A stretch of DNA of 21,724 bases, taken from positions 35,523 to 57,246 of the forward strand of contig CAKJTL010000092.1 of assembly GCA_917627385.1 (NCBI GenBank), in the 5' to 3' direction. A model generated the notes under the pieces. That model had not been told where the DNA came from. It saw nothing but the letters and a program-made list of their open reading frames with translations, and searched no databases. This document shows, piece by piece, positions 2,880 to 21,724 of this stretch. Position 1 is the first letter of the stretch, and every line of letters begins with the position of its first letter. Made by a program: the position numbers and the translations under genes. This DNA is from Frankia sp. CIT1 (GTDB lineage: Bacteria; Actinomycetota; Actinomycetes; Frankiales; Frankiaceae).

Positions 2880-5846
2880 TCATACTTTTTCGGACTGAAT
2901 CAGCTTCTTGGCGGCATGCGGTTTCGGTGACCCGGCCCGCTCACCGGGCCTGCGGGAGTCAGCCGGGGCCGCGTCGGCCGGCTCCCCGGTCGGCTCCCCG
3001 GTCGGCTCACCAGCCGGCTCGGCGGTCAACTCGCCGGCCGGCTCCCCAGTCGGCTCACCAGCCGGCTCGGCAGTGGAGCCGGCGGTGTCGCTGTCCTCCC
3101 CGAGATAGGCACGGATCACATCGGGATTGGTCCGGATCTCCTCAGGTGCCCCTTCGGCGATCTTCCGACCGAAGTCGAGCACCGCGATGCGGTCGCAGAT
3201 GCCGAGGACCAGCGGAATGTCATGCTCGATCAGCAGAACGGCGGTGTTGCGCCGCTCGGCGATCCCCCGGATGACCGTCCCGATCTCGGCGCTCTCATGG
3301 GAGTCCAGACCGGCGGCCGGCTCGTCGAGGAACAGCACGTTCGGATCAGCGAGCAGCGCCCGAGCCACGCCGACGAGCCGCGCCCGGCCATGCGGAAGCT
3401 CAGCGGGCTTGCTGTCCAGCAGATCCGTCAGCCCGAACTCCTCGATGATCTCTTCCATGGTGACGGACGGACGCTGCCGCCCAGGACGGATCATGTCGGT
3501 GAAGTAGTACCCCGGCGCCTGGGTGTCCGCGGCGGCGAGCAGATTCTCCCGGACCGTCATGTCCGGGAACAGCTCGACCGCCTGGAAGGACCGGGCCAGC
3601 CCGGCCCGTGCCCGCCGTACCGGCGACCATCCGGCGATGGGCTTCCCGTCGAGCAGCACCTCACCCGACGTCGGCTTGGTGAAGCCGGTGACGATGTCCA
3701 GCAAGGTCGTCTTGCCCGCGCCGTTGGGGCCGATCAGCCCCAGCACCTTGCCCGGCTCAACGCGCAGGTTGACGTCGATGAGCGCCTGCACCCCACCGAA
3801 ACGGACGCTGAGATTACGCACCTCAAGAACCGCGGGCTCACGGCGACGGCTGGCGGCCGGACTGTCAGCGGCAGCTCCGTCGGCTCCGTCGGCTCCGTCG
3901 GAAGCGGCGGTCGCGCCGGTCGCGCCGGTCGCGGTGGTACCAGCGGGCGCCGCACCGTCTACAGCCGGCGCTGGTGCCGATCCGCCGCCGCGCAGCCGTG
4001 CGACAAGTGCCTGATAACCATCGGAGTTGAGTTTGGCGATCCCGTCCGGGGCCTGGAAAAGTGTCAGGATGACGCCACCACCGGCGATGAGGGGCAGCCA
4101 GCCGCTGATGTCACCGAGCGAATCAACGATCTTCGCCGTGACACCGCCCGCAATCATGGTGGCGCCGGCCAGGCTGCCCGACGCCCAGCCAATACCGCCA
4201 ATCACCGCATACATGACGACGTTGATGGACCCGAACACGTCGAACTGAGTGAAGACCACGGTCGGGCTGCGGAACCCGGTGAGGATCCCGCCGATCGCGC
4301 CGATCGCGGCGGCCAGGCCGAAAGCGTAGAGCTTGGCCCCGTAGACCCCGATGCCGATCGACGCGGCAGCCCGCTCATTGCTGCGGATCGCCAGCAGCCG
4401 CCGACCGGTGCGGCCACGCCGCACATTGGCCACGAGGAGACCGAGCAACACCAACATGATCAGGACAAGAGTCGCGTAGCGCCGAGGGTAGGTGATCGGG
4501 TCGAGGTCGACACCGAACAGGGACGGCGTCCCGACATTGGTCCCGTCAAGCCCGCCGGTAAGCTCACCGTTACCCAAGATCATATTCTGGATCACCAGTG
4601 CCAGGCCGAGCGTGGCGACCGCGAGGTTAACCCCACGGGTACGCAGTGCGGGCAGCGCCACAATGAGACCGGCCGGTATCGCGGCAAGAACACCGACGAG
4701 TGCCGCCAGCCAGAATGGCCACCCCGACGCGGCGACCAGCCGGGCCGCGACCCAGGCACCGAAGCCGGCCAACGCCCACTGACTGAGCGAGAGCTGTCCA
4801 GCGTAACCGGTGACGACGACGACGGACAGCACGAGCACCGCCGCGATGAAGGTCGTGGCGAGCGAGTCGACCCAGTCGGTAGGCACTGTCCAGACGAGCA
4901 ACGCACCCGCGGCGATCGCCGGAATGAGCAGCGGCAGGTTCACCCGTCCTGGACCGGGCAACGGCAACCGCACGGGAAGGTCACCGCGGGCGGGCCGGGC
5001 ACGTCCACCGAGAGTGAGAATGACGATAATCAACAGGAACGGTACGGAATCCGCGAGCCCGGTGACGTCGGCGAGGTAGCGTCCGACCTCCGCCTGCACG
5101 ACACCGAGCAGCATGGCGCCGCCGATCGTGAGCAGGAAGGACGAGAAGCCTCCGACCAGCGCCGCCGCGAGCGCGGGAACGACAAGCAGGGTGAGTGCAC
5201 CCGCGGACAGTCCGGTGATGGGCGCGAGAAAGATCGCGGCGGTGGCGTACAGCGCGCCGCCGACGCTCCAGTTCACCAGCTCAATCATGGATGTCGACCA
5301 TCCGGAGGCCGCTGCCGTGCGCCGGTTCTCCGCCACCGCCGTGGTCGCGAGACCGAACCGGGTCCGGGAATAGATCAACCACAGGACGGCCGCGAGCACG
5401 ATCAGAAGACCGATGAGGACGATACGGTCCTTACCGATGACCAACGAGCCGGTCACGTGGACCGCCTTGGTCGGCAGGATCGACTTCACCAGCTCCTGCA
5501 CGGACCCCCAGACAAGCACCACCACGCCCTCGAGGAACAGCAGGACTCCGAGCGTGGCGATGAGCTTGACCAACGCGGAGGCCCGGCGCAGCGGGACCAT
5601 GACCAACAGGTGGGTGGCACCACCCAGCGCCGCCCCGAACGCGATACTCAGCACCAGCGCGGCGATCCAGTTCACATGATGGGTGTCGCGCAGGTCATAG
5701 AAGACGAAGGCGGCGAAACCGCCCGTCACGCCGCTGGCGAAGTTCAGTACTCCGGAGGCTCGGAAGACCAGCACGATCCCGAGCGCGGCCAGCGCGTACA
5801 AGCTGCCCGTGCCAAGACCCAGCAGGGCAAAGCGGAGGAAATCCAC
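2880..5846 (-). CDS. Triple-fusion ABC transporter subunit: LivH-like permease + LivM-like permease + LivG-like ATPase, with a low-complexity C-terminal tail
   Basis: Single uninterrupted 988-aa ORF. Residues 1-290 are a LivH-type permease (MDFLRFALLGLGTGSLYALAALGIVLVF...). Residues 300-640 or so are a LivM-type permease (...GYAGQLSLSQWALAGFGAWVAARL...). A Thr/Gly/Ala/Asp-rich linker (TTATGATGATAASDGADGADGAA) follows. Then comes a LivG-type ATPase (VLEVRNLSVRFGGVQAL...GPNGAGKTTLL...LDEPAAGL...). The C-terminus is an (EPxG)n tail. Confidence 0.85.
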   Translation of the reverse strand: MDFLRFALLGLGTGSLYALAALGIVLVFRASGVLNFASGVTGGFAAFVFYDLRDTHHVNWIAALVLSIAFGAALGGATHLLVMVPLRRASALVKLIATLGVLLFLEGVVVLVWGSVQELVKSILPTKAVHVTGSLVIGKDRIVLIGLLIVLAAVLWLIYSRTRFGLATTAVAENRRTAAASGWSTSMIELVNWSVGGALYATAAIFLAPITGLSAGALTLLVVPALAAALVGGFSSFLLTIGGAMLLGVVQAEVGRYLADVTGLADSVPFLLIIVILTLGGRARPARGDLPVRLPLPGPGRVNLPLLIPAIAAGALLVWTVPTDWVDSLATTFIAAVLVLSVVVVTGYAGQLSLSQWALAGFGAWVAARLVAASGWPFWLAALVGVLAAIPAGLIVALPALRTRGVNLAVATLGLALVIQNMILGNGELTGGLDGTNVGTPSLFGVDLDPITYPRRYATLVLIMLVLLGLLVANVRRGRTGRRLLAIRSNERAAASIGIGVYGAKLYAFGLAAAIGAIGGILTGFRSPTVVFTQFDVFGSINVVMYAVIGGIGWASGSLAGATMIAGGVTAKIVDSLGDISGWLPLIAGGGVILTLFQAPDGIAKLNSDGYQALVARLRGGGSAPAPAVDGAAPAGTTATGATGATAASDGADGADGAAADSPAASRRREPAVLEVRNLSVRFGGVQALIDVNLRVEPGKVLGLIGPNGAGKTTLLDIVTGFTKPTSGEVLLDGKPIAGWSPVRRARAGLARSFQAVELFPDMTVRENLLAAADTQAPGYYFTDMIRPGRQRPSVTMEEIIEEFGLTDLLDSKPAELPHGRARLVGVARALLADPNVLFLDEPAAGLDSHESAEIGTVIRGIAERRNTAVLLIEHDIPLVLGICDRIAVLDFGRKIAEGAPEEIRTNPDVIRAYLGEDSDTAGSTAEPAGEPTGEPAGELTAEPAGEPTGEPTGEPADAAPADSRRPGERAGSPKPHAAKKLIQSEKV
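2975..3080. repeat. 12-bp periodic in-frame tandem repeat (about 8 units, cggctcNNNNgN) encoding the C-terminal (P-A/T-G-E)n tail of the fused transporter
   Basis: Read directly: cggctccccggt cggctccccggt cggctcaccagc cggctcggcggt ... It translates on the minus strand as PAGEPTGEPAGELTAEPAGEPTGEPTGEP. Confidence 0.7.
3873..3934. repeat. 9-bp in-frame tandem repeats (gctccgtcg x3; gtcgcgccg x2.5) encoding the permease-ATPase linker
   Basis: Read directly. It translates as TGATGATAASDGADGADGA within the fusion protein. Confidence 0.6.
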
Positions 5847-5933
5847 GTCGGAAAGCCTTTCTGCCGAGAACGCGGGTATGCCGGCGCACCCGGCCGCGGG
5901 AGGAACCGCGGCCGGGTGCCGAAACAGCCGCGG

Positions 5934-7151
5934 TTAGGAGCTGCCGAGGACGTTGAATGCCTGGTTGTCGAACAGTGGTGTACGGGTACCGTTTTTGACC
6001 TCGGAGAAGTACACACTGGTGGTGAAAATCCGGTTACCGTCGAACAGAACCTTGATCGGCTTGGCGAAGTCCACCTTGGGCAGCGGCGAGAAGTCGATCT
6101 CTCCGGCGGTATTCAGAGCATTGGCCAGGCTCTCCCCGTCGATCGTGGTCAGCTTCGCCGCGTACTGGGCCACCAAGTGGACGGTCGCCCACGCGGTCAT
6201 GGCACCTTCGCTGCGGGTGTCAGCGGCAACACCGGCGGCATCCAGCTCGGAGTTGAACTGCTTGATCGCGGGAATGGTGGTATCGCTGGCCGGTGGCATC
6301 GAACCAACCAGCACCAGCCCGTCCGCGGCCGATCCAAGCGTCTTGATCATTTTATCCTCGATGACCGTAGCGCCGTAGGCGGTCGTGACCTTGGAGCCCG
6401 CCTGCGAGAGCGCCTGCAACAGCTTGGACGCCTGGCTCGAGCCCAGCACCATGTCGATGCAGTCGGTGGTGCCGCTGGTCAACGTGGCCGCGCTGGTCGT
6501 CAGGTCGGTGGCAGTCGGCGCGATCGGCACAGTCTTGTTGATGTTCAGGTTGAACGACTTGAGGCCGATGCCGAAGAAGGAAGCCGAGTTGCGTCCAGCC
6601 GCGATGTCGACGACCGCGACGGCCGGATCCTTCTTACCCAGCTTGCCACAGGCCGTCCCGCCACCGGCGATGTTGACCGCGCCGCTGCCGAACGGGAAGG
6701 AGTACGGGCTCTTGAGCTCACTGGCGCTGCTCGGTACTTCACCGATCGCCGGGATCTTCGCCTTCTCCAGGATCGGCATGTACCGGTCGCCGGTGCTGGA
6801 GTTGGCCGTCACGAACAGGTACTTGCCCTGAACGGCCTGGGTCGCACAATCAGCGCCCTTGTTCGGGTCGAACTGGTCATCGCAGGCGGTGACCTCCAGC
6901 GGCCGGCCCTTGATACCGCCGGCCTTGTTGATTGCTTGAGCCGCGGCCTTCACCGCCGCGGGGACTCCCGGGTAGCTGTCGGACGGGCCTGACAGCGCCT
7001 GGATCGTCATGATCTTTATGGGTTCGCCGGAAAGCTTGGTCGCCGACCCCGACGCGGCACTCCCGTCATTCGACGAAGAACTACCGCATGCGGCCAGCGC
7101 GAGGGCACCGGCAAGCGCTACGGCGAAGGGTGCCTTCGAGCGGACTTTCAT
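5934..7151 (-). CDS. ABC transporter substrate-binding lipoprotein, branched-chain amino-acid (Leu/Ile/Val-binding, Peripla_BP_6-like) family
   Basis: ORF 5934..7256. The best start is ATG at 7149-7151 (MKVRSKAPFAVALAGALALAACGSSSS...), preceded by AAGGAGG. It has a lipoprotein signal peptide with a lipobox LAAC. It is the first gene of the operon. Third-position GC is noticeably lower than in neighbouring genes. Confidence 0.85.
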   Translation of the reverse strand: MKVRSKAPFAVALAGALALAACGSSSSNDGSAASGSATKLSGEPIKIMTIQALSGPSDSYPGVPAAVKAAAQAINKAGGIKGRPLEVTACDDQFDPNKGADCATQAVQGKYLFVTANSSTGDRYMPILEKAKIPAIGEVPSSASELKSPYSFPFGSGAVNIAGGGTACGKLGKKDPAVAVVDIAAGRNSASFFGIGLKSFNLNINKTVPIAPTATDLTTSAATLTSGTTDCIDMVLGSSQASKLLQALSQAGSKVTTAYGATVIEDKMIKTLGSAADGLVLVGSMPPASDTTIPAIKQFNSELDAAGVAADTRSEGAMTAWATVHLVAQYAAKLTTIDGESLANALNTAGEIDFSPLPKVDFAKPIKVLFDGNRIFTTSVYFSEVKNGTRTPLFDNQAFNVLGSS

Positions 7152-12264: not shown

Positions 12265-14031
12265 GTGACTGTGAGTCGCGAGCAGCTCCGCCGTGAAGCG
12301 GACAGGGCGATCGACGAGGTGCTCGCGGGACGGGAAGCGTGCGAGCTGGAGTCGCAGACACTCGACTTCAAGGAGCTGAAGCGTCCCGCGGGCAACGACC
12401 GCGACCTGCTGAAGGCCGCGGCTGCCGACCTCGCCGAAGCTGTGGCCTGCCTGGCCAACAGCCGGGGCGGGACGGTCATCGTCGGGGTGCGCGACGATGG
12501 GGCTGGGCCCGCGGCCATCGTGGGCGTACCCACCGACCTCGACATAGACGATCTTCGCCATCGAATCTGGCAGCACACGTCGCCATCCTTGGTAGTCGAT
12601 ATTGAAAGTCGCGTCGCACACGGCATGCGGCTGCTTCTCATCACCGTGGAAACAGCATTTGACCTGGTTCGGGCTGGTGGAAAACTTCGCGAACGGATGG
12701 GCACCTCCTGCGAACCGATGGCTCCTGGCCGGGAAGCCGTCATCCGTGACGAGCGCCGTGGATACGACTGGTCCGCCGAGCCCACGCACCTGCGGGTCGA
12801 CGACGTGTCCCCACGCGCGGTCGAGGAGGCACGCCGTGGGCTCACCGAGGCGGGAGACGCCCAGAGCCGTCGGCGTGCCGAGCTAAGCGTCACCGACCTC
12901 CTGCGTGAGTGCGCGGTTCTGGACAGCAGCGGACATCTCACCCGGGGAGGTGCCCTGCTGTTCAGTAGCCTGCACCCTTTCGCCGCTGATCCGACAATCC
13001 AGTACCTGCGGCGGCGGACGCCGGCCGGTCCCCTTACCCGTCCATCATCAGTCCACCGAACTCCCCTGATTGTCGCCCTGGCCGATCTTCTTCGGGATAT
13101 TGACGCAATCAACGAGACCACGTCGGTCACACTTCCCACCGGCGTGCAACAACAACTCGAAACGATTCCCGGCCCGGCCGCGCGCGAAGCCGTGGTCAAC
13201 GCAATCGCACACCGCGACTACCGGCATCGTGAGCCGGTAGTCGTCGAGCACAGCCCCAGCCGGCTCGTTGTGACATCACCTGGGGAGCTGGTGTTCGGGG
13301 TAACCGAGGAGAACTTGCTCACGCATGTGTCCAAGCCGCGAAACCGCTGCCTGGTCGAGGCGCTGCGGGTGCTCCGCCTGGCGGAAAGAGCCGGCACTGG
13401 TGTCGATGTGATGGTACGGGTCATGATCCGCGCAGGACATCCGCCGCCGGTCTTTACAAGCAGGAGCGGGAGCGTCCGGGTCGTCATCGACGGCGGTGCT
13501 CCTGTGACACGCCTTGCGGTAATGATCGCAAGCCTGCCTGTTGAGGTGCAGGACGACACTGATGCAATTCTGCTCATTCATTTCCTGCGGTCCCATGCGA
13601 CCGTCGATGCGGTTAAGATCGCTCCTATCCTCCAGAAGAGCGTTGAAGAGGCATCCGAGGCTCTCCGGCGGCTGTCGGACGACACCTACGATCTGCTGGA
13701 GCCGGTTCGAGCGACACGCCGGTACCGGATACCCGCGTATCGCTTCCGGGAACGTACGCGCGCGGAACTGGGCACGCTGCTGCCCTACCATCGCAACGAC
13801 TCCGATGAGATCGAGCGTCGTATCGTCGCACACCTGCGCGAATATGGGACGATCTCCAACCAGACCGTCCAGAACCTGTTCCTGGTGGGGGTCCAGCGGG
13901 CGAGCACGCTCCTGCGTTCGCTCGCGGAGAAGGGCGTGCTCCAGCGCACGGCCGACTCGCCGACCCGCGGACCGACCGTCAGGTACGAAGCCGGGCCGGC
14001 GTTTCCACAACGCGGCAGCCGCCGCCGATGA
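12265..14031 (+). CDS. Schlafen-like ATPase/DNA-binding protein: AlbA_2 (divergent AAA) domain + HATPase_c_4 ('RecG C-terminal-like', COG2865 family)
   Basis: 588-aa ORF starting at GTG. N-terminal 'LDFKELKRPAGNDRDLLKAAAADLAEAVACLANSRGGTVIVGVRDDGAG' fits AlbA_2. The central 'AREAVVNAIAHRDYRHREPVVVE' matches the NAxxHRDY signature of HATPase_c_4. The C-terminus has a wHTH-like region. This is recalled motif similarity with no search. Confidence 0.7.
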   Translation: MTVSREQLRREADRAIDEVLAGREACELESQTLDFKELKRPAGNDRDLLKAAAADLAEAVACLANSRGGTVIVGVRDDGAGPAAIVGVPTDLDIDDLRHRIWQHTSPSLVVDIESRVAHGMRLLLITVETAFDLVRAGGKLRERMGTSCEPMAPGREAVIRDERRGYDWSAEPTHLRVDDVSPRAVEEARRGLTEAGDAQSRRRAELSVTDLLRECAVLDSSGHLTRGGALLFSSLHPFAADPTIQYLRRRTPAGPLTRPSSVHRTPLIVALADLLRDIDAINETTSVTLPTGVQQQLETIPGPAAREAVVNAIAHRDYRHREPVVVEHSPSRLVVTSPGELVFGVTEENLLTHVSKPRNRCLVEALRVLRLAERAGTGVDVMVRVMIRAGHPPPVFTSRSGSVRVVIDGGAPVTRLAVMIASLPVEVQDDTDAILLIHFLRSHATVDAVKIAPILQKSVEEASEALRRLSDDTYDLLEPVRATRRYRIPAYRFRERTRAELGTLLPYHRNDSDEIERRIVAHLREYGTISNQTVQNLFLVGVQRASTLLRSLAEKGVLQRTADSPTRGPTVRYEAGPAFPQRGSRRR

Positions 14032-14811: not shown

Positions 14812-15354
14812 TCAGAGTGCCAGCCACTTGTCGAATGAGGGCCTGTCGATCACTTCAGGAGGACTTCCTCGCTGATGAGTGCGGAGGGTCTGGGTATATC
14901 CCCACAAGGCGTCAGCGTCGACCCATTCCCGCTTGGCCGCGACCTTCAACAGGTGCCAGGTCCTGACTACTTTGATCTTGTTCCGAGCGGCGAGCCGTAC
15001 GGCATCGTTGTCATCGGTGACGAAGAATCCGTGCACGCGGCGACGGATCATGATTGCGAGCGTCTCGGCTTCACCGAGGTGTCGGTGAGGGTGGTCGCCT
15101 GGGCTGGCAAGCTCCTCGCGAAGAAGCCTCGTGTCCTGAAGTTCTGCCGCGTCGGGGAACCAGGGCGACCCGAAAATGCCCCTGGCATCGGCCAACGCGG
15201 CGAGACCGGGTTTGCGTGCCGACGAGTCGCATTCCGCTGCCACGGTGGCGCACCAGTGGCCGTGGCCGTTCGCCAGCCGCTCCAGCAGATCCATCCGGTT
15301 GATGATCGCAAAATTGATCAGAACTGTGTTGTCCGGGAACAGGAGCACGGCCAC
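14812..15354 (-). CDS. PIN-like (VapC-like) putative nuclease / toxin partner of the upstream XRE-ImmA gene
   Basis: 180-aa ORF. The GTG start at 15352-15354 lies 3 nt after the upstream gene's TGA. N-terminal 'VLLFPDNTVLINFAIINRMDLLERL' resembles PIN strand-1 (DxNVLI). 'GEAETLA' and 'FFVTDDNDAVRLA' supply the further acidic residues of a PIN active site. Assigned from memory of motifs. Confidence 0.6.
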   Translation of the reverse strand: MAVLLFPDNTVLINFAIINRMDLLERLANGHGHWCATVAAECDSSARKPGLAALADARGIFGSPWFPDAAELQDTRLLREELASPGDHPHRHLGEAETLAIMIRRRVHGFFVTDDNDAVRLAARNKIKVVRTWHLLKVAAKREWVDADALWGYTQTLRTHQRGSPPEVIDRPSFDKWLAL

Positions 15355-15357
15355 GGT

Positions 15358-16461
15358 TCAGAGGTCCAACGCCCTAGCAAGATCATCAATGGTCACCTCA
15401 GGCACTGCGGGGATGTCAACATCCAGCGCATCGGGATCAATACCGAGCATCCAGGCGAGCGTTCCCTTGCCGAGGGTCCCGGCTTCGATCCCTTTGAGGT
15501 GCGCCTCCTGCAGCGTGAGGGGGAAACGACGCTGGGCGGCTGCGTCCATACGCAAAGTGATCTCATCTTTACCTGAATTGGGCGCCCGGTGACGCCGCAA
15601 CAAACGCTGGGTCGGTTGTCCGGCCCATTCCCGCACCACATCGGGCACGTAGCCGTTCAGGGCATGCAGGCGGCGGGCGAGTGCGTCGGTGGACACACCC
15701 CACCGCCACACGAGGTCAGCCAGCCCGGCCGCCTCGTACCGGTCCCAGTCGATCACGGCAAGCGACTCACGGGGGAGCAGAAGCTCCGCCGCGAACGCGT
15801 TCGCGGCCGCCTCGCGCTGGTCCCGCTCGGCCGCGGAGAACCCCTGGTCGTGGTGACCCCAGACGAGATGGCCCAACTCATGTGCCATTGACCAGTTCTC
15901 CCAGAACCAGTTCCCGGTCGCCGAGAGCGCGATCACATGGCGGCCACCGATGGTGAACGAGTACGCGGTGGACAGGTCTGCGATCCGCACAACATCGACG
16001 CCGAACCGGCTCTCCAGCCGATCCGCGAAGGGGCGCACGAAGTCCTCACCCAGCGCCACCCTGACCCCATCAGCACCAGCCCCGTCAACACTCTCTGGAA
16101 GGGCTGGTCCGTGCTGCGGTTCGGAGTAGGCCTGACGGTAGGCCAAGGCGATGTCGCGTAGCACCAGCCCGTCAGCGTCACGCTCGGGTACGCTCCGACG
16201 ACCCGTCAGGTGATTAAAATCGTGACGCGCCGCGACGATCAGCCGATGCGGGTCGGGCTGTCCGGTGATCAGCCAATGGATGTCCGCATCCAGCAGGTCA
16301 GCCAGGCGCGCCAACTCGATCGAGGAGAAGGCGCGCTTGCCGTTTAGCGCGCGCGAGAACGCATCGGGCGGCATCCCGATGTCCGCCGCGATGTCCCGCT
16401 GCCGGGTGGTGGGGCAGACCTGCCTGATATGCTCCAGCACGCGGTCACCAATACTGTGCAT
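15358..16461 (-). CDS. XRE-family HTH transcriptional regulator fused to an ImmA/IrrE-family Zn-metallopeptidase (COG2856)
   Basis: 367-aa ORF with ATG at 16459-16461. The N-terminal HTH is 'TRQRDIAADIGMPPDAFSRALNGKRAFSSIELARLADLLDADIHWLITG'. The HEXXH zinc motif is 'SMAHELGHLVWGHHD'. A C-terminal extension of about 100 aa follows. Confidence 0.85.
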   Translation of the reverse strand: MHSIGDRVLEHIRQVCPTTRQRDIAADIGMPPDAFSRALNGKRAFSSIELARLADLLDADIHWLITGQPDPHRLIVAARHDFNHLTGRRSVPERDADGLVLRDIALAYRQAYSEPQHGPALPESVDGAGADGVRVALGEDFVRPFADRLESRFGVDVVRIADLSTAYSFTIGGRHVIALSATGNWFWENWSMAHELGHLVWGHHDQGFSAAERDQREAAANAFAAELLLPRESLAVIDWDRYEAAGLADLVWRWGVSTDALARRLHALNGYVPDVVREWAGQPTQRLLRRHRAPNSGKDEITLRMDAAAQRRFPLTLQEAHLKGIEAGTLGKGTLAWMLGIDPDALDVDIPAVPEVTIDDLARALDL

Positions 16462-16503: not shown

Positions 16504-16636
16504 GCATCTGTCCGGGCCACGTGGCTACCTCCGCGGGGCCTACCCCAGCGCCGCAGCCACGGCACGACGGATGGACGTCCGAAACCCCCGTGTCGGGCAG
16601 AAAATACGTGTCGCTCTTCCACTCGTGACCTGCCGA

Positions 16637-16656
16637 ACCGTTGTGACCAACGGTAT
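16637..16656. terminator. Hairpin ACCGTTG-tgac-CAACGGT just downstream of the SPFH gene stop; candidate terminator and/or second operator
   Basis: 7-bp stem and 4-nt loop, 10 nt after the SPFH stop on the minus strand. There is no clear U-tract, as is common in high-GC actinobacteria. It shares half-sites with the 16477-16503 palindrome. Confidence 0.3.
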
Positions 16657-16665
16657 CGCGAACCA

Positions 16666-17925
16666 TTACTCAGCCGGTGACTCGACGACCTCCGCATGCG
16701 AGGCGTCCTGTTGCGCGGCGCGCACGGCGGCATCCGCGGATGAGCCGCCGGCCGGGGCGATCTGTGGACGCGGGCCGTCGCTGGAAAACTCGGCTGTCGG
16801 GCCGCCGCTGAGCGAGCCGATCAGGTTCGTCAGTTCACGCATGATGTCGGGCCCGAACCCGGCCAGCCCGGTCATCAGACTGACCAGCCCCTTGTCGTGG
16901 GAACCCGCAATGTAGGTCCGCAGGTTCGGCAGTAGTTTGCCCTTGGCCTCCAGGATCTCCGGTAGCCTTTCCACGATCATCCGTTGGATGTTCTCCTCGT
17001 GGTGGCCGCCTTCAATACGCAGCCGTTCGGCCAGTTTGTATGCCTCCAGCTCGGCCAGTGCCCGGGCGTGGTCGCGTTCCGACGCCCGGCTTTCATCCGC
17101 CACCGCTATGCGTGCCCTGGCGACTTCCAGCCGTCTCAGCTCAGCATAGGTGTCGGCATCCGCTCTGGCCCGCTCCGCCGTCAGCCGCTCGTTCGCCTCC
17201 CGCCGGGACCGCGTGGCACTGATCTGATCCTCTATAGCCAGTTTGGTCGTAAGCGTCCGCAGGTGAGCGTCCAGCGATATCTTCTTCTCCCGCTCCGCCA
17301 CCCAGTCCGCAGGCAGCACAACGTTCGCGACGGACAGTGGCCGCGGTTCGAATCCCATCTCCACCAGTGCCGGCCTGGACCTCCACATCACCTCGTCCGC
17401 GATCTTTCCGAAATCGCGATCGACCTGCCCCATGGCCCGTTCGCCCACCACGTCACGAATATGTACGACAAGGGTGTCGATGACTTGCCGGTGCATGTTC
17501 TCCGTGTCCTCGCCGAAATGCTCGCTCACCGTCCGGATCGCCTGCTCGTCTCGTGGGATCCGAAAAGCTGTACGAAGATCGAGCGTCAGCGGCACCTCGT
17601 CGGAGGACTGACAGGTCACCCGGAACTCGATCGGCTGCCACTGCAACGAAATCTTGGTGAGGATGGCGCCCGGAGGGAGGAAGATCCGCCCTTTCAGCAC
17701 CACCTTGATGCGATGATCCCACCACCCCGAGACGACACCCGCCTCGTCCTGGCCCAGCGGTTCCGACAATTTTGCCATGACGACTCCTAGAACAAACAGC
17801 GCCAGCAGCGCGAAGAATAATTTGGGGATGACGAACAACAGCCAGCCGGCCAGCGCTGTCACCGCGATCAGCGCGCCGAGATTCCAGGGTGACTGGTTCC
17901 TCAGCCATGCACGCCAGTCATTCAT
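16666..17925 (-). CDS. SPFH / band-7 (flotillin-stomatin-like) membrane protein with C-terminal coiled coil
   Basis: ORF 16666..17973 with TTG at the ORF end. ATG at 17923-17925 (MNDWRAWLRN...) is 17 nt after the subtilase stop. One or two N-terminal TM helices are present ('LGALIAVTALAGWLLFVIPKLFFALLALFVLGVVMA'). The SPFH core is 'IKVVLKGRIFLPPGAI...VPLTLDLRTAFRIPRDEQAIRTV'. A long Arg/Glu/Ala-rich coiled coil follows ('RREANERLTAERARADADTYAELRRLEVARARIAV...'). Confidence 0.8.
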   Translation of the reverse strand: MNDWRAWLRNQSPWNLGALIAVTALAGWLLFVIPKLFFALLALFVLGVVMAKLSEPLGQDEAGVVSGWWDHRIKVVLKGRIFLPPGAILTKISLQWQPIEFRVTCQSSDEVPLTLDLRTAFRIPRDEQAIRTVSEHFGEDTENMHRQVIDTLVVHIRDVVGERAMGQVDRDFGKIADEVMWRSRPALVEMGFEPRPLSVANVVLPADWVAEREKKISLDAHLRTLTTKLAIEDQISATRSRREANERLTAERARADADTYAELRRLEVARARIAVADESRASERDHARALAELEAYKLAERLRIEGGHHEENIQRMIVERLPEILEAKGKLLPNLRTYIAGSHDKGLVSLMTGLAGFGPDIMRELTNLIGSLSGGPTAEFSSDGPRPQIAPAGGSSADAAVRAAQQDASHAEVVESPAE

Positions 17926-17941: not shown

Positions 17942-19447
17942 TCAGACTGACTGGATGGCCCGCATGACGTCAACCAGGCCGTGCCCCTGAAACTCCCGTA
18001 CCCGGCCGAGATCGGTCGCGGAGTCCAGGAAAACCTTTTTTACCCGTTCGGGGCTGCCGATAAACTCGCTACGCACCGAGAGAAAGGCGGCGATGGCCCC
18101 GGAGACGTGTGCCGCCGCCAAGCTCGTCCCGCTGAACTCGCTGTAGTCTGGATAGTCCCAGTCCTCGTCGTCGGGCTGGGCCGTCGAGCTGACGCAGCTC
18201 ACAATGTGTTCGCCGGGGGCGACAAGGTCCGGCTTGAGCCGGCCATCCCCCGTCGGCCCCTTGGAGGAAAAATAGGAAACCCCGTACCGGTGCGGAGCGA
18301 CTCGATGCGTGGAGCCGACCGTGATAGCGCCGAAGGCGTTTCCTGGATCGTTGATCGTAACGCCCGCGCTGAAATCATCGGTGTTCCGGGCTACTTCCGT
18401 CCGCACGAAACCCGAATTGCCGGCGGCAACGACCACCAACACGCCCGAGGCGACCATGCGGTCGACCTCGTTGCACAGCGGGGAATACCCGCCGACAAAC
18501 CACTCCGGGTAAAACGAGTAGCCAAGGCTCAGATTTACTCCGTGAATGCGAATGTTACGGCCGTAGTCGTTGACCCGCTGGATGTGCTCCAGCGCCGCGA
18601 TCACCGCACTCACGTTGGCCAGCCGGCCCGCGCCGAACACTTTGTAGCTCACAATCTTACAACGCGGGGCGACACCGCCGATCCTGGTGATCGCGGACGT
18701 GTACGCATCCACCGTCTTGTCGCCGTCAAGCAGCATCTGGCGGACACGTAACCGACGTCCACCGGTTTCGGCGGAGTCAGCCGCCACCTCACCCGCGATG
18801 ATACCGGCGACCGGCGTGCCATGCCCGATACCATAATCATCCCGGGTTGGAGCGTTGCCGTCCGTCAGATCGACGTGCTCAAGTTGAGCCGGCAGACTGA
18901 GATTGTCCCATTTAGCAAAGTGTGGGTGCCGCTCGTCAACCCCGGAGTCGACAACCGCCCAGACAATGTTTTCACCGAACGCGCCGAAGGTTGCCTGAGC
19001 CGCGTCGCCCTTTATCACCGCCACGGACCTGTCCAGCAGCGCCGAAACTTCGAAGTCGGGCCAGACCCGCCGGATCGCGCGCAGCCGCCAGTTGCCGGCA
19101 TCCTGTTCAGCCTGCTCGACATCGACGTGGACGACCCAGCGCACAGCCTCCGGCGGGAGGACCGCGACGACGTAGGAACGGCCCAGCTCCCGAGACAGCC
19201 GCGACTCACCGATGTCGTCGAACACGTTCATCTCGCTGAACCGCACGGCTGCCTCGGTCAGCAGCGTGCGCACGGTATTCGCGGCACCGCGGCGGCCGGC
19301 GGGGAAATCCGGGTTGAGGTCGAAGATGACCCGGACGGTGCCCGATGCACTTCGGCTCTCCAGCTCTGTCAGCCGCGACTCCAGCGCAGGCGTGATGACG
19401 GACCGGGCATGCGTTACCGGCCGGCGGCCAGGATCATCGAATTTCAT
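17942..19447 (-). CDS. Subtilisin-like S8 serine peptidase lacking a signal peptide (predicted cytoplasmic)
   Basis: ORF 17942..19549. The 5' 100 nt of the ORF are AT-rich with A/T third positions and contain a palindrome, so they are probably non-coding. The likely start is ATG at 19445-19447 (MKFDDPGRRP...), with GGGGGA 6 nt upstream. An alternative start is ATG 19478-19480. The catalytic Asp is in 'WAVVDSGVD', the His in 'GHGTPVAG', the Asn in 'AAGNSG', and the Ser in 'SGTSLAAAHVSGAIAAF'. No hydrophobic N-terminal signal is present. Confidence 0.85.
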   Translation of the reverse strand: MKFDDPGRRPVTHARSVITPALESRLTELESRSASGTVRVIFDLNPDFPAGRRGAANTVRTLLTEAAVRFSEMNVFDDIGESRLSRELGRSYVVAVLPPEAVRWVVHVDVEQAEQDAGNWRLRAIRRVWPDFEVSALLDRSVAVIKGDAAQATFGAFGENIVWAVVDSGVDERHPHFAKWDNLSLPAQLEHVDLTDGNAPTRDDYGIGHGTPVAGIIAGEVAADSAETGGRRLRVRQMLLDGDKTVDAYTSAITRIGGVAPRCKIVSYKVFGAGRLANVSAVIAALEHIQRVNDYGRNIRIHGVNLSLGYSFYPEWFVGGYSPLCNEVDRMVASGVLVVVAAGNSGFVRTEVARNTDDFSAGVTINDPGNAFGAITVGSTHRVAPHRYGVSYFSSKGPTGDGRLKPDLVAPGEHIVSCVSSTAQPDDEDWDYPDYSEFSGTSLAAAHVSGAIAAFLSVRSEFIGSPERVKKVFLDSATDLGRVREFQGHGLVDVMRAIQSV

Positions 19448-19516
19448 TACGTCCCCCGATCTGCGGCATTGGACGGCCATGGGACCGCCGGATCCGACTA
19501 TATATGCGATAAGGCT

Positions 19517-19563: not shown

Positions 19564-21453
19564 CTACGGGTGGAAAGGTTCCGCATCGTCGACCGGATGC
19601 GTAGCCGACGGGGACGTGGACGGGTTCGGCAGACGCCACAGAGCCGCCTCACCGGCGTCGGATGCGGTGGCGAACCAGCGCCCGTCAGGGCTGAACGCGA
19701 CCGCGTTTACGCGCGGTTCGTGCACCGATCGGTGCCTCGCCGGCCCCGCGGAAAGATCATAAACAAAGACCACCCGATATGCCGGGCTGTGCGCGGCCAT
19801 GAAACGTCCGTCCCGGCTGACGGTAAGCGCGCCCGGCGTTCTGGGGTGGGAGAACCGTGCCCGTACCCGGCAGGCTGCCACGTCGATAAACGAGATGACC
19901 ATCGAACGGTGGCGTAACACAAGCAACTGGCCGGCCAGGCCGAGCGCGGCGTCCACTACCTCGGAGCCCGCCGCGGTGAAGTCCCCAGCATCTTTACCGG
20001 CCGCCGAGGGGTAGACGCAGGCACCGGTGGCGAGCGCCCACAGCCGTGGCGAACAGCTGTCATCCAGGGTGACCAGCCACCCGCCATCCCAACTGAACCG
20101 AGCCGCCGTCACACGACGTACCGTCTCCACGGTCTTCCTGACCTCGCCACTGGCGCTGTGGCGCATCACAAGGCACTCCGACCGGGTGTCCCGAAGCGCG
20201 ATGAAGCGACCGTCCGGGCTCGCCGCGACAAAGGCCTCCCCCTCGGCCCCCAACCGGCTTCCGGCCAAGGCAATGCCCAGGTCAACGCCCAGGTCAACGC
20301 CCAGGTCATGGCGCCAAGCACCGGCCTGCGGGAAACAGCTCAACAGGTACCGCCCAGCCGGGCCGAACAACAGCGCGGGGGGCGTCTGTCCACTCGCCCA
20401 GAGGTGGGTCACCCGAGCAGCCGACACATCCCACAATCGGGAATTCCCGTCCAGACAAACCGTTGCGAGCAGCGAGTCATCGGGGCTGAACACGGCATGC
20501 CGAACCGGTGCCGGATGCACGAAGGTCCCTTGGCAGCGGAGGCTGTCGACCTTCCAGCACCGGACCGCGCCGTCCCGACCGCCTGTCACCAGCCGCCGCG
20601 AGTCGGAACTGAACGCAACCACGAGTACGGGCGACGGCCGGCCGACGGCTGAGGGGCTGGCATGCCGCAGAACGCCCACCTTCGTCGGCCCGCCGTCAGC
20701 CACGATCCCGGCCAGCGGCCGAACCGGCTTCCGTCCGGTAGACGGGCCGTTCTCAGCCGCCGGAGATGCGGGCACCGGCCGCGCCCGGGACTCCGGCGGC
20801 TGCCGCGTGCTGTCTAGCGCACCGCATGGTGCGCCGTCTGGCGCGCTGTCTGGCGACCCCGGAAACGGGTATGGGGGTGGAACCGGACCGGCGCGATCCG
20901 CAGGCAGGAGGGTCGGGCCGGGGAAGTCCGGCTCGGACGCTGGTTTCCCCCGCCCTGACATGGCCGCGGTGACGCCCGCGAGCAGCCGCTCACGGGCGTC
21001 GTCCGCCGTCAGTCCGAAGATGTCGAAGGAGACCACCCGCCCCAGCAAACCCGGCCGGGGACAGTCCTCGACGCGGACGGGGATCAGCTTGCGTTCCGTG
21101 CCGCTCTGGTCGGCTAGGTGGGCGGCCTCCCATTCGGTGCGGCCCCACCCCGACTCAAGGTAGGCGGCCGAAAGGATCGCCAGGGTATGGCGGGCGCCGC
21201 GGATACCTTCCTCCATTCGCGCGGTCCAGTGTGTACCCGGCACGAAGTCCCATTTCTGGAACAGCACCCGATAGCCGGCTCGCTCCAGCTGCCACGCGAT
21301 CCACTCGGCCCAGGGCATGTCCGCGGCGGTATAGGAAATGAAAAAATGCCATGACGCGACGACAGGCAGCGGGACTGACATTGGTGGAGTGGCTGCCGCG
21401 GGCGGCGCGGCCCGCGGCAGCCGGCGCTGCGCATCGTCAGCACGCTCGAGCAT
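19564..21453 (-). CDS. TIR-domain protein fused via a Pro-rich disordered linker to a 7-bladed WD40 beta-propeller, with no NTPase domain
   Basis: ORF 19564..21495. The likely start is ATG at 21451-21453, with GGGGGGAA upstream. Alternatives are ATG 21493-21495 and ATG 21379-21381. The TIR domain is 'SWHFFISYTAADMPWAEWIAWQLERAGYRVLFQKWDFVPG...LAILSAAYLESGWGRTEWEAA', which carries the S..Y..S.W...E motif including the putative catalytic Glu. A linker of about 100 aa follows ('GKPASEPDFPGPTLLPADRAGPVPPPYPFPGSPDSAPDG...'). WD40 blades include 'VVAFSSDSRRLVTGGRDGAVRCWKV', 'AVFSPDDSLLATVCLDGNSRLWDV' and 'AVAFSPDGRWFATASDAGEAALWRL'. Confidence 0.8.
   Translation of the reverse strand: MLERADDAQRRLPRAAPPAAATPPMSVPLPVVASWHFFISYTAADMPWAEWIAWQLERAGYRVLFQKWDFVPGTHWTARMEEGIRGARHTLAILSAAYLESGWGRTEWEAAHLADQSGTERKLIPVRVEDCPRPGLLGRVVSFDIFGLTADDARERLLAGVTAAMSGRGKPASEPDFPGPTLLPADRAGPVPPPYPFPGSPDSAPDGAPCGALDSTRQPPESRARPVPASPAAENGPSTGRKPVRPLAGIVADGGPTKVGVLRHASPSAVGRPSPVLVVAFSSDSRRLVTGGRDGAVRCWKVDSLRCQGTFVHPAPVRHAVFSPDDSLLATVCLDGNSRLWDVSAARVTHLWASGQTPPALLFGPAGRYLLSCFPQAGAWRHDLGVDLGVDLGIALAGSRLGAEGEAFVAASPDGRFIALRDTRSECLVMRHSASGEVRKTVETVRRVTAARFSWDGGWLVTLDDSCSPRLWALATGACVYPSAAGKDAGDFTAAGSEVVDAALGLAGQLLVLRHRSMVISFIDVAACRVRARFSHPRTPGALTVSRDGRFMAAHSPAYRVVFVYDLSAGPARHRSVHEPRVNAVAFSPDGRWFATASDAGEAALWRLPNPSTSPSATHPVDDAEPFHP
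20275..20310. repeat. 12-bp in-frame tandem repeat x3 (gcccaggtcaac) inside the WD40 region, encoding DLGVDLGVDLGI
   Basis: Read directly. Confidence 0.6.
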
Positions 21454-21556
21454 GGTTCCCCCCGGATGAACCAGCGCCACCGAATGAATCAGCATCGACG
21501 CAGCGAAGCGTACGCCGAAGGCGACCCGCCTACCGGTACGCCCGCCCGGTGTGGAC

Positions 21557-21661: not shown

Positions 21662-21724
21662 AGCCCAGTTGGGCGGCCTATCCTCGGGCGCTCTAAGTGG
21701 TCGCCGCCGGGAGTTCGTCCAGGG

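What the first reader, a model, noticed from the sequence alone, without database searches (positions are those of the whole stretch)
19564..21453. TIR-(disordered linker)-WD40 architecture without an NTPase domain; the TIR keeps the catalytic Glu motif
Bacterial TIR-WD40 proteins in NLR-like systems normally carry a central STAND NTPase (NB-ARC or NACHT). Here the TIR joins the propeller directly through a low-complexity Pro/Ser/Ala linker. The 'LSAAYLESGWGRTEWEAA' segment fits the conserved TIR NADase motif. The propeller also contains an in-frame 12-bp x3 tandem repeat (DLGVDLGVDLGI) in a predicted loop, which could be a hypervariable sensing surface.
Basis: partly seen in the sequence, partly recalled or inferred. 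Interest (0 to 1): 0.6.

Follow-up and report, generated by a model that had tools for sequence, protein, structure and literature searches.

The report
TIR-WD40 gene in protease-SPFH operon
This Frankia gene really does encode a TIR domain joined to a WD40 propeller with no NTPase between them; that layout is common in actinobacteria, and what stands out is that the gene heads a rare, undescribed three-gene operon with a cytoplasmic subtilisin-type protease and a membrane SPFH scaffold protein.

Summary
ORF 19564-21453 (-) encodes TIR_2 (res 34-160), a Pro-rich disordered linker (about 161-272) and a WD40 propeller with eight sequence repeats. It has no Walker motifs and no Pfam hit in the linker. 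The TIR keeps the SxWxxxE motif (Glu107). The 12-bp x3 repeat exists.

- NTPase-less TIR-WD40 is not unusual. 26 of 28 short proteins among the best 150 cluster representatives have it.
- The DLGV repeat has three copies in all four related assemblies and is absent from orthologues. The real length polymorphism is a 12-bp indel in the linker.

The gene is the first of a conserved cassette: [TIR or EAD1]-WD40, then an S8 subtilase, then an SPFH/Band_7 protein. I found this cassette in four independent contexts. Two orthologous TIRs lack the Glu, and one cassette carries EAD1 instead of TIR.

I read it as an NTPase-free conflict module: propeller as sensor, TIR as NADase effector or homotypic adaptor, latent protease plus membrane SPFH scaffold as regulator. 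The mechanism is inferred. No paper or PADLOC model describes the cassette. Interest is moderate.

The parts
19564..21453 (-). TIR-linker-WD40 gene (629 aa from ATG 21453; an alternative upstream ATG at 21495 gives 643 aa)
   Evidence: ORF list, sequence with SD-like GGGGGGAA, Pfam TIR_2 plus WD40. It is 95-99% identical to Frankia sp. Cj3 and CiP3 proteins.
20974..21354 (-). TIR domain (residues 34-160)
   Evidence: Pfam TIR_2 E 2.7e-37. AF2 model of the domain has pLDDT 84.7. Foldseek TM is 0.7-0.8 to TIR structures, including AbTir 7uxu, SPARTA, SARM1 and MyD88.
21133..21135 (-). Codon of Glu107 in the SxWxxxE motif (SGWGRTE), the position of the catalytic Glu of NADase TIRs
   Evidence: Motif search. 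The column is Glu in 51 of 56 related TIR domains. It aligns to the conserved Glu of TLR and TIR-STING TIRs and sits at the start of helix 70-81 of the TIR model.
20638..20973 (-). Pro/Ala/Gly/Ser-rich linker (residues 161-272), predicted disordered over 168-253
   Evidence: Composition and absence of Walker motifs. AF2 pLDDT is below 50 with no secondary structure. No Pfam hit at E<=10.
20826..20837 (-). 12-bp in-frame segment in the linker that is present here but absent from the Cj3-group relatives (a true length polymorphism)
   Evidence: DNA alignment. It lies within an imperfect 12-bp repeat, 20812-20855.
19624..20637 (-). WD40 beta-propeller (residues 273-610), with eight sequence repeats
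   Evidence: Pfam WD40 and beta-propeller models. AF2 shows 30 strands over 257-607 with pLDDT mostly 75-97. Foldseek best target-normalised TM is 0.77 to ODA16 5nnz_A. The eight-blade assignment is inferred.
20271..20308 (-). 12-bp x3.2 tandem repeat encoding DLGVDLGVDLGI, in a low-confidence loop of the third repeat
   Evidence: TRF. AF2 segment 377-403 has pLDDT below 50. Copy number is the same in four assemblies. It is absent from orthologues L085 and L089.
17942..19480 (-). S8 subtilase (512 aa from the ATG used in relatives; an alternative ATG at 19447). It has no signal peptide or TM segment.
   Evidence: Pfam Peptidase_S8 E 8.9e-45. PADLOC 'subtilase' model E 4.4e-49. Invariant columns D167, H209, N344 and S442 in the family alignment, which I read as the catalytic Asp/His/Ser and oxyanion Asn. 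No hydrophobic segment. The protein is identical in the Cj3 group.
16666..17925 (-). SPFH/Band_7 protein (419 aa) with an N-terminal hydrophobic hairpin and a long charged helical region. It starts 16 nt after the S8 stop.
   Evidence: Pfam Band_7 E 8.9e-11. One roughly 36-residue hydrophobic stretch. Orthologues sit next to S8 in L085, L089, L086 and JGI contigs. Identity is 41% to L085 and 32% to L086.

Best explanation
The ORF encodes a cytoplasmic TIR-disordered linker-WD40 protein of a Frankia strain. It is not a defective NLR. It is the first gene of a small, mobile three-gene cassette: [N-terminal TIR or EAD1 head]-WD40, then a cytoplasmic S8 subtilase with a conserved N-terminal extension that I guess is prodomain-like, then a membrane-anchored SPFH (flotillin/stomatin-like) protein.

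My reading is an NTP-independent biological-conflict module, meaning anti-phage defence or regulated cell death. The fast-evolving propeller is the recognition or regulatory part. The TIR is the output, either as an NAD+-cleaving effector (this copy keeps SxWxxxE) or as a homotypic recruiting domain. The protease and SPFH scaffold gate activation at the membrane.

The most plausible step is proteolysis of the exposed linker or of a partner, which would free or cluster TIR domains. TIR enzymes need self-association to become active (established knowledge).

Shown: domain anatomy, absence of an NTPase, conserved gene order, head swapping, relative rates of evolution.

Inferred: the conflict role, NADase activity, and every activation step.
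For: **Anatomy.**

**Cassette conservation.** The same order, strand and short gaps occur in unrelated neighbourhoods:
- the window and the Cj3 group;
- Frankia sp. Cpl3, L085: S8 63%, SPFH 41%, TIR 32% and WD40 28% identical, with the propeller collinear;
- Logan contig L089, TIR_2-WD40/S8/Band_7;
- a JGI contig with EAD1-WD40/S8/Band_7.

**Controls.** Generic TIR-WD40 paralogues P0005 and P0009 have no S8 or SPFH neighbour.

**Head swapping.** TIR and EAD1 alternate at the head position. P0023 combines EAD1 with the same TIR type (58% identical). This matches the effector/adaptor logic described for actinobacterial conflict systems, where Band7-like domains are listed as scaffolds (PMC7159879).

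**Sister cassettes.** In these, the WD40 gene is replaced by an alpha/beta-hydrolase-like gene placed between S8 and SPFH.

**Rates of change, window versus Cj3.** S8 has 7 synonymous and 0 non-synonymous differences. SPFH has 4 and 4. TIR-WD40 has 11 and 21, with in-frame indels. This fits a sensor evolving fastest.

**Neighbourhood.** An HTH-M78 (RmrA-like)/DUF3368 pair and a Schlafen AlbA_2 gene lie nearby.
Against: - There is no experimental datum for any cassette member.
- The SPFH subfamily is very rare: 5 hits at E<1e-10 in 5.8 billion proteins, and none in the metagenome or viral contig scans. The conservation argument therefore rests on about five lineages.
- Two orthologous TIRs (L085, L089) lack the W and the Glu. 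A NADase output cannot be the general mechanism.
- The dN/dS counts are tiny.
- The upstream neighbour is unknown, because every assembly breaks about 250 nt upstream.
- SPFH-protease pairs also serve ordinary membrane-protein quality control.
- PADLOC has no model for the SPFH protein or the hydrolase-like partner.
Confidence: 0.5

Rival explanations
1. Stand-alone sensor-effector. The TIR-WD40 protein works on its own, like a minimal NLR without the NTPase switch. Ligand binding to the propeller clusters the TIR domains and triggers NAD+ hydrolysis. The S8 and SPFH genes are unrelated neighbours.
For: Many TIR-WD40 proteins without an NTPase exist. At least P0009 has no S8 or SPFH neighbour. 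The TIR motif is intact.
Against: The specific propeller type of this gene travels with S8 and SPFH in four independent contexts with different flanks. Gaps between the genes are short and no terminator-like site lies in them.
Confidence: 0.2
2. The TIR acts as a non-enzymatic homotypic adaptor, in the same way as EAD1. The head only recruits other TIR-containing effectors encoded elsewhere in the Frankia genome. The Glu is a family relic.
For: EAD1 replaces TIR in one cassette. Orthologues L085 and L089 lack the W...E motif. Frankia genomes hold many proteins with a 55-70% identical TIR fused to other domains. The fold is as close to the adaptor MyD88 as to the NADases.
Against: This copy keeps the full SxWxxxE motif and a low TIR dN/dS of 0.21, though the counts are tiny. 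Glu is kept in 51 of 56 family members.
Confidence: 0.2
3. NLR split in trans or decayed. An NTPase is supplied by a separate gene, for instance just upstream beyond the contig end. Alternatively, the gene is a remnant of a TIR-STAND-WD40 gene that lost its NTPase and is drifting.
For: In L085 a weak NB-ARC-TPR gene lies divergently upstream. Frankia CiP3 has a TIR-nSTAND1-WD40 paralogue, P0026. The window's upstream neighbour is unknown. TIR-WD40 dN/dS is 0.70.
Against: No NTPase is annotated beside the JGI cassette; upstream of L089's gene only about 560 nt of contig are held, so that case is uninformative. The ORF is intact in all strains and all indels are in frame. The architecture recurs in many clusters. 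The TIR core is conserved.
Confidence: 0.08
4. Housekeeping membrane-protein quality control. The SPFH protein and S8 protease form a proteolytic scaffold like HflK/C-FtsH or stomatin-NfeD, and the WD40 protein is a substrate adaptor. No conflict function is involved.
For: SPFH-protease pairing is a known theme (established knowledge; the Tavernarakis 1999 title is cited in PMC7159879). S8 is under strong purifying selection.
Against: TIR and EAD1 heads are hallmarks of conflict systems (PMC7159879, PMC8195603). The cassette is rare, patchy and sits in different neighbourhoods, unlike a housekeeping system.
Confidence: 0.07

Closest known systems
Bacterial NLR-like TIR-STAND-(WD40/TPR) proteins, e.g. 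Frankia CiP3 TIR-nSTAND1-WD40 (P0026); the architecture is described in PMC9153377
   Same: The TIR head is of the same subfamily, with the conserved GR(A/G)KPxxxPxFP junction. The C-terminus is WD40 repeats. The host is actinobacterial.
   Different: There is no P-loop NTPase between head and repeats. This one is operonic with S8 and SPFH.
NADase TIR domains (AbTir, SARM1, SPARTA TIR-APAZ, Thoeris ThsB)
   Same: It has the TIR fold (TM 0.64-0.76) and the SxWxxxE motif with Glu at the start of helix C.
   Different: There is no ThsA, Argonaute or ARM/SAM partner. Activity is untested. Orthologues in sister cassettes lack the Glu.
EAD-linked conflict systems of multicellular bacteria (Kaur, Burroughs, Iyer, Aravind 2020/2021; PMC7159879, PMC8195603)
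   Same: TIR and EAD1 heads are interchangeable on repeat-containing proteins. Band7-like scaffolds occur. The systems are enriched in filamentous actinobacteria.
   Different: Those systems are defined by NTP-dependent cores (MoxR-vWA, STAND, GTPases). None is present in this cassette. I found no S8-SPFH-WD40 cassette described in those papers.
Gasdermin-protease systems (bacterial and fungal; bioRxiv 10.1101/2021.06.07.447441, PMC8851545)
   Same: They combine a protease (subtilase or caspase-like), a repeat sensor (WD40, TPR or NACHT) and a membrane-acting partner, with proteolysis as the activating step. The PADLOC 'subtilase' model matches this S8.
   Different: There is no gasdermin gene. 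The repeats are on a separate protein rather than fused to the protease. The membrane partner is SPFH.
SPFH-protease pairs (HflK/C-FtsH, stomatin-NfeD/STOPP)
   Same: An SPFH protein with a hydrophobic hairpin and coiled coil is encoded next to a protease.
   Different: The protease here is a soluble S8 subtilase, not an AAA+ or ClpP-type enzyme. A TIR/EAD1-WD40 gene is attached.
Widespread S8 + alpha/beta-hydrolase-like two-gene module (uncharacterised)
   Same: The S8 protein is about 50% identical over its full length, including the N-terminal extension.
   Different: In 74 of 80 loci the conserved neighbour family is a roughly 440-aa GHSFGG protein (directly downstream in 59 members), and none has TIR, WD40 or SPFH. 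The Frankia-type subclade adds SPFH and may replace the hydrolase by TIR/EAD1-WD40.

Membership tests
TIR domain (Pfam TIR_2, PF13676) | Profile match above the curated cut-off | tested here: met
   128.4 bits against a cut-off of 28, full-length match 1-122/122.
TIR domain (Pfam TIR_2, PF13676) | Flavodoxin-like TIR fold | tested here: met
   AF2 domain model has pLDDT 84.7. Foldseek probability is 1.00 and TM 0.6-0.8 to TLR1, TIR-STING, MyD88, AbTir and SARM1.
NADase-type TIR enzymes | Catalytic Glu in the (S)xWxxxE motif at the start of helix C | tested here: met
   S101-G-W-G-R-T-E107. The column is conserved in 51 of 56 relatives. It aligns with the conserved Glu of TLR and TIR-STING TIRs. 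Equivalence to SARM1 E642 and AbTir E208 rests on established knowledge of the motif; I did not obtain a residue-level alignment to them.
NADase-type TIR enzymes | NAD+ cleavage activity | not testable with these tools
   Needs an enzyme assay. Glu is necessary but not sufficient: TLR TIRs also carry it.
STAND / NLR-like receptors | Central P-loop NTPase (NB-ARC, NACHT, nSTAND) between effector and repeats | tested here: not met
   No Walker A or B. No NTPase family among the Pfam hits shown. The linker alone has no hit at E<=10. The 112-residue linker is predicted disordered. HHpred was not available.
WD40 beta-propeller | WD40 repeat profile matches and a closed propeller fold | tested here: met
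   Pfam WD40 scores 75.6 bits against a cut-off of 27. AF2 shows 30 beta-strands over 257-607. Foldseek E is 1e-22 to WD40 propellers. The blade count of eight is inferred from eight sequence repeats and the best TM to ODA16.
Thoeris | ThsB-type TIR gene next to ThsA (SIR2 or TM with SLOG/Macro) | tested here: not met
   No such gene lies in the 19.5 kb downstream. The PADLOC scan gave no Thoeris model. The upstream side is unknown.
Gasdermin-protease defence systems | Gasdermin gene adjacent to the protease | tested here: not met
   The neighbours are Band_7, HTH-M78 and DUF3368. There is no gasdermin hit in Pfam or PADLOC.
NTP-dependent ternary conflict systems (MoxR-vWA, GAP1) | MoxR AAA+ and vWA, or a GTPase core, in the operon | tested here: not met
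   None in the window or in L085, L089 or the JGI cassettes.
SPFH-protease membrane scaffolds | SPFH-domain protein with a membrane anchor encoded beside a protease | tested here: met
   Band_7 E 8.9e-11. There is a hydrophobic hairpin and a 16-nt gap after the S8 stop. The pairing is kept in L085, L086, L089 and JGI contigs.
SPFH-protease membrane scaffolds | Physical complex or regulated proteolysis | not testable with these tools
   Needs co-purification or cleavage assays.

The most novel reading that the evidence does not exclude
The cassette is a previously undescribed, NTPase-independent immune module. A propeller sensor carries a swappable TIR or EAD1 head. It is licensed by a latent cytoplasmic subtilase that is held on an SPFH membrane scaffold. 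Cleavage in the disordered linker, or of the scaffold, releases or clusters the TIR to deplete NAD+ or to recruit other TIR effectors. In this reading, proteolysis replaces the nucleotide switch of NLRs.
Probability: 0.25. Interest if true: 0.75.

Novelty: new variant of a known kind. Interest (0 to 1): 0.42.

Why it matters
TIR-repeat immune receptors are usually discussed with a STAND NTPase as the switch. NTPase-less TIR-WD40 proteins are numerous but have not been studied. Here one subgroup is tied to a protease and an SPFH scaffold, which gives a concrete, testable alternative switch: proteolysis at the membrane. It also links bacterial TIR biology to the SPFH-protease theme and to the EAD adaptor logic. 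If confirmed, this would add a new regulatory route to TIR activation. It would also assign a first function to a very widespread S8 family, which elsewhere is paired with an alpha/beta-hydrolase-like protein.

Tried and rejected
- **Cryptic NTPase in the linker.** Rejected: no Walker motifs, no Pfam hit at E<=10, AF2 predicts disorder.
- **Copy-number variation of the DLGV repeat.** None in four assemblies.
- **S8 neighbours across 80 genome loci**. I expected TIR, WD40 or SPFH and found an alpha/beta-hydrolase-like partner instead.
- **More cassettes.** The SPFH alignment found nothing in metagenome contigs or viral contigs. The SPFH homologue search gave only 5 hits. Two of their contigs were too short to show the first gene.
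- **Literature.** Six full-text searches, five of them aimed at this cassette (TIR-WD40; SPFH with subtilase or defence; Peptidase_S8 with Band_7), found no description of it.
- **PADLOC.** There is no model for the SPFH protein or the hydrolase-like partner, and only generic TIR and 'subtilase' hits.
- **Residue-level alignment to AbTir or SARM1.** Not obtained. The tool prints only the five best alignments, and these were TLR-type TIRs.
- **Exact-sequence look-up of the window protein.** Not on record.
- **Promoter and terminator scan.** Uninformative.
Full report
**Observation**

The window comes from a Frankia strain. The closest proteins are from Frankia sp. Cj3 (95%) and CiP3 (99%, partial).

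On the minus strand an ORF runs 19564..21495.

Pfam finds TIR_2 (E 2.7e-37, full-length match) and WD40 or beta-propeller models over about residues 270-606.

The stretch between them (residues 161-272) has these properties:
- It is 21% Pro, 14% Ala, 12% Gly and 9% Ser.
- It has no Walker A or B pattern.
- It gives no Pfam hit even at E<=10.
- AF2 predicts no secondary structure and pLDDT below 50 for 168-253.

A STAND module cannot be hidden there.

The motif SGWGRTE (S101..E107) is present. Its Glu column is Glu in 51 of 56 related TIR domains, and it aligns with the conserved Glu of TLR and TIR-STING TIRs.

A separate AF2 model of the TIR domain (pLDDT 84.7) matches solved TIR structures with TM 0.6-0.8. 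These include the NADases AbTir, SPARTA and SARM1, but equally the adaptor MyD88. The fold and the motif therefore allow catalysis but do not prove it.

The 12-bp repeat is real (20271-20308, 3.2 copies, 96% matches). It lies in a low-confidence segment (377-403) between two strands of the third propeller repeat.

The propeller has eight FS(P)DG-type sequence repeats and 30 DSSP strands. Its best target-normalised TM is 0.77, to ODA16, which I recall to be eight-bladed. The blade count is an inference.

**How unusual the architecture is**

It is not unusual.

Frankia, Parafrankia and Pseudofrankia encode several proteins in which the same TIR type, with the same GR(A/G)KPxxxPxFP junction, runs straight into WD40 repeats (P0003-P0009).

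In an exhaustive HMMER search of 1.84 billion cluster representatives, I scanned 28 short (<=800 aa) proteins among the best 150. All 28 have TIR_2 and 26 have WD40. No NTPase family appears among the 25 most frequent of the 75 Pfam families matched.

Reviews describe TIR-NBD-(LRR/WD40/TPR) as the bacterial and plant pattern (PMC9153377). The NTPase-less form is thus under-discussed rather than rare.

**The repeat as a variable surface**

This idea is not supported:
- All four assemblies of the clade have three units. The relatives differ only by the same T>G change in units 2 and 3.
- The segment is an insertion missing from the orthologues L085 and L089.
- The length polymorphism between strains is in the linker: a 12-bp in-frame indel at window 20826-20837, inside an imperfect 12-bp repeat. 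There is a further indel in the N-terminal tail.

**Context: the main result**

Downstream on the same strand lie two genes:
- An S8 subtilase (17942-19480). It has no signal peptide or TM segment, and the family alignment has invariant D167, H209, N344 and S442, which I read as the catalytic Asp/His/Ser and oxyanion Asn.
- An SPFH/Band_7 protein (16666-17925), starting 16 nt after the S8 stop. It has one hydrophobic hairpin and a long charged helical region.

The same trio, in the same order, recurs in unrelated neighbourhoods:

| Source | First gene | S8 | SPFH |
|---|---|---|---|
| Frankia sp. Cpl3 (L085) | TIR 32%, WD40 28% identical, propeller collinear | 63% identical | 41% identical |
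| Logan contig (L089) | TIR_2-WD40 | present | Band_7 |
| JGI contig | EAD1-WD40 | 66% identical | 47% identical |

Sister cassettes place an alpha/beta-hydrolase-like gene between S8 and SPFH and have no WD40 gene. These are Streptomyces sp. cf386 (L086) and a JGI contig.

The wider S8 family is about 50% identical over its full length across many phyla. In 74 of 80 loci its conserved neighbour family is a roughly 440-aa GHSFGG protein (directly downstream in 59 members). None of these loci has TIR, WD40 or SPFH.

Generic TIR-WD40 paralogues (P0005, P0009) have no S8 or SPFH neighbour. The gene in the finding therefore belongs to a distinct orthologous group defined by its propeller type and its operon partners.

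**What the head domain tells us**

In L089 the same TIR lineage has lost both the W and the Glu. In L085 the region is deleted or changed. In the JGI cassette the head is EAD1, a non-enzymatic adaptor (PMC7159879, PMC8195603).

P0023 of Pseudofrankia joins EAD1 to this same TIR type. This is a Rosetta-stone style link: EAD1-WD40 plus EAD1-TIR is equivalent to TIR-WD40.

The head is therefore an output or recruiting module, and the propeller, S8 and SPFH form the conserved core. In this particular copy the output is probably catalytic. Across the family, catalysis is not conserved.

**Rates of change**

I compared the window with Cj3:

| Gene | Synonymous | Non-synonymous | dN/dS |
|---|---|---|---|
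| S8 | 7 | 0 | 0 |
| SPFH | 4 | 4 | 0.34 |
| TIR-WD40 (whole) | 11 | 21 | 0.70 |
| TIR domain only | 3 | 2 | 0.21 |
| Linker | 3 | 6 | 0.85 |
| WD40 | 3 | 7 | 0.85 |

TIR-WD40 also carries in-frame indels. The counts are small, but the ranking matches the deep comparison: S8, then SPFH, then the propeller. It fits a sensor under diversifying or relaxed constraint.

**Mechanism: inferred, confidence about 0.5**

I propose an NTPase-free conflict module with these roles:
- The propeller recognises a trigger.
- The subtilase is kept latent, perhaps by its conserved N-terminal extension; I could not assign that region to any family. It would be positioned by the SPFH scaffold, following the known SPFH-protease theme of HflK/C-FtsH and stomatin-NfeD.
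- Proteolysis, most plausibly of the exposed linker or of a partner, frees or clusters the TIR domains.
- The TIR domains then cleave NAD+ or recruit other TIR proteins.

Kaur et al. list Band7-like domains among the scaffolds of actinobacterial conflict systems. Gasdermin systems give a precedent for the combination of protease, repeat sensor and membrane partner.

None of these steps has been shown.

**Rivals**
- A stand-alone TIR-WD40 sensor-effector.
- TIR acting as a pure adaptor.
- An NTPase supplied in trans. L085 has a weak NB-ARC-TPR gene upstream, and the window's upstream side is unknown because all assemblies break within about 20 nt of the same point.
- Housekeeping proteolysis.

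**Novelty and score**

The protein's architecture is a known, annotated kind. The S8-SPFH-(TIR/EAD1)-WD40 cassette is rare: there are five SPFH subfamily hits in 5.8 billion proteins. It is absent from PADLOC v2 apart from generic models, and I found no paper describing it.

I rate it a new variant of a known kind, with moderate interest (0.42). The operon context is the part worth following.

Noticed in passing
window 21700-21724 (upstream end); L001 and L002 starts: The window and two of the three related Frankia assemblies (L001, L002) end within about 20 nt of the same point, roughly 250 nt upstream of the TIR-WD40 start. The third, L004, starts inside the TIR-WD40 gene. This suggests a repeated or mobile element begins there, so the upstream neighbour of the cassette is unknown.
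   Followed up: partly
L005-L084 (80 genome loci), e.g. L019 2827-5634: There is a very widespread two-gene module. It pairs an S8 peptidase (about 50% identical across Actinomycetota, Acidobacteriota, Verrucomicrobiota, Gemmatimonadota, cyanobacteria and proteobacteria) with a roughly 440-aa GHSFGG alpha/beta-hydrolase-like neighbour family, found in 74 of 80 loci and directly downstream in 59 members. The partner has only a weak DUF900 hit and no PADLOC model.
   Followed up: partly
window 14812-16461 (-): An HTH_XRE-Peptidase_M78 (ImmA/IrrE-type) gene, matching PADLOC RmrA-like models, is followed by a DUF3368 gene. This toxin-antitoxin-like or defence-associated pair lies next to the cassette. 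It is not part of it, because it is absent beside the Cpl3 cassette.
   Followed up: partly
window 12265-14031 (+); L002 8160-8979; L004 7059-9149: A Schlafen AlbA_2 + HATPase_c_4 gene is intact here and in Cj3 (588 aa). It is broken into fragments in two related assemblies, so the gene is decaying or variable within the clade.
   Followed up: no
window 20812-20855 (linker of the TIR-WD40 gene): An imperfect 12-bp repeat (3.7 copies, 71% matches) carries the only repeat-associated length difference between strains, a 12-bp in-frame indel at 20826-20837.
   Followed up: yes
L085 3842-5962 (-): In Frankia sp. Cpl3 a 706-aa protein with TPR and a weak NB-ARC match is encoded divergently just upstream of the TIR-WD40 gene. 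This may be coincidence, or it may be an NTPase partner acting in trans.
   Followed up: no
window about 16530-16666 (-); L001 5006-5140: A 44-aa ORF overlapping the SPFH stop codon is called in the related assemblies. It is not seen beside the Cpl3 cassette.
   Followed up: no
window 2880-5846 (-) versus 3222-6992 (+): A 988-aa fused branched-chain amino-acid ABC permease-ATPase has a C-terminal PT repeat. The longer 1256-aa ORF on the opposite strand has no Pfam hit and is probably a high-GC shadow ORF.
   Followed up: no
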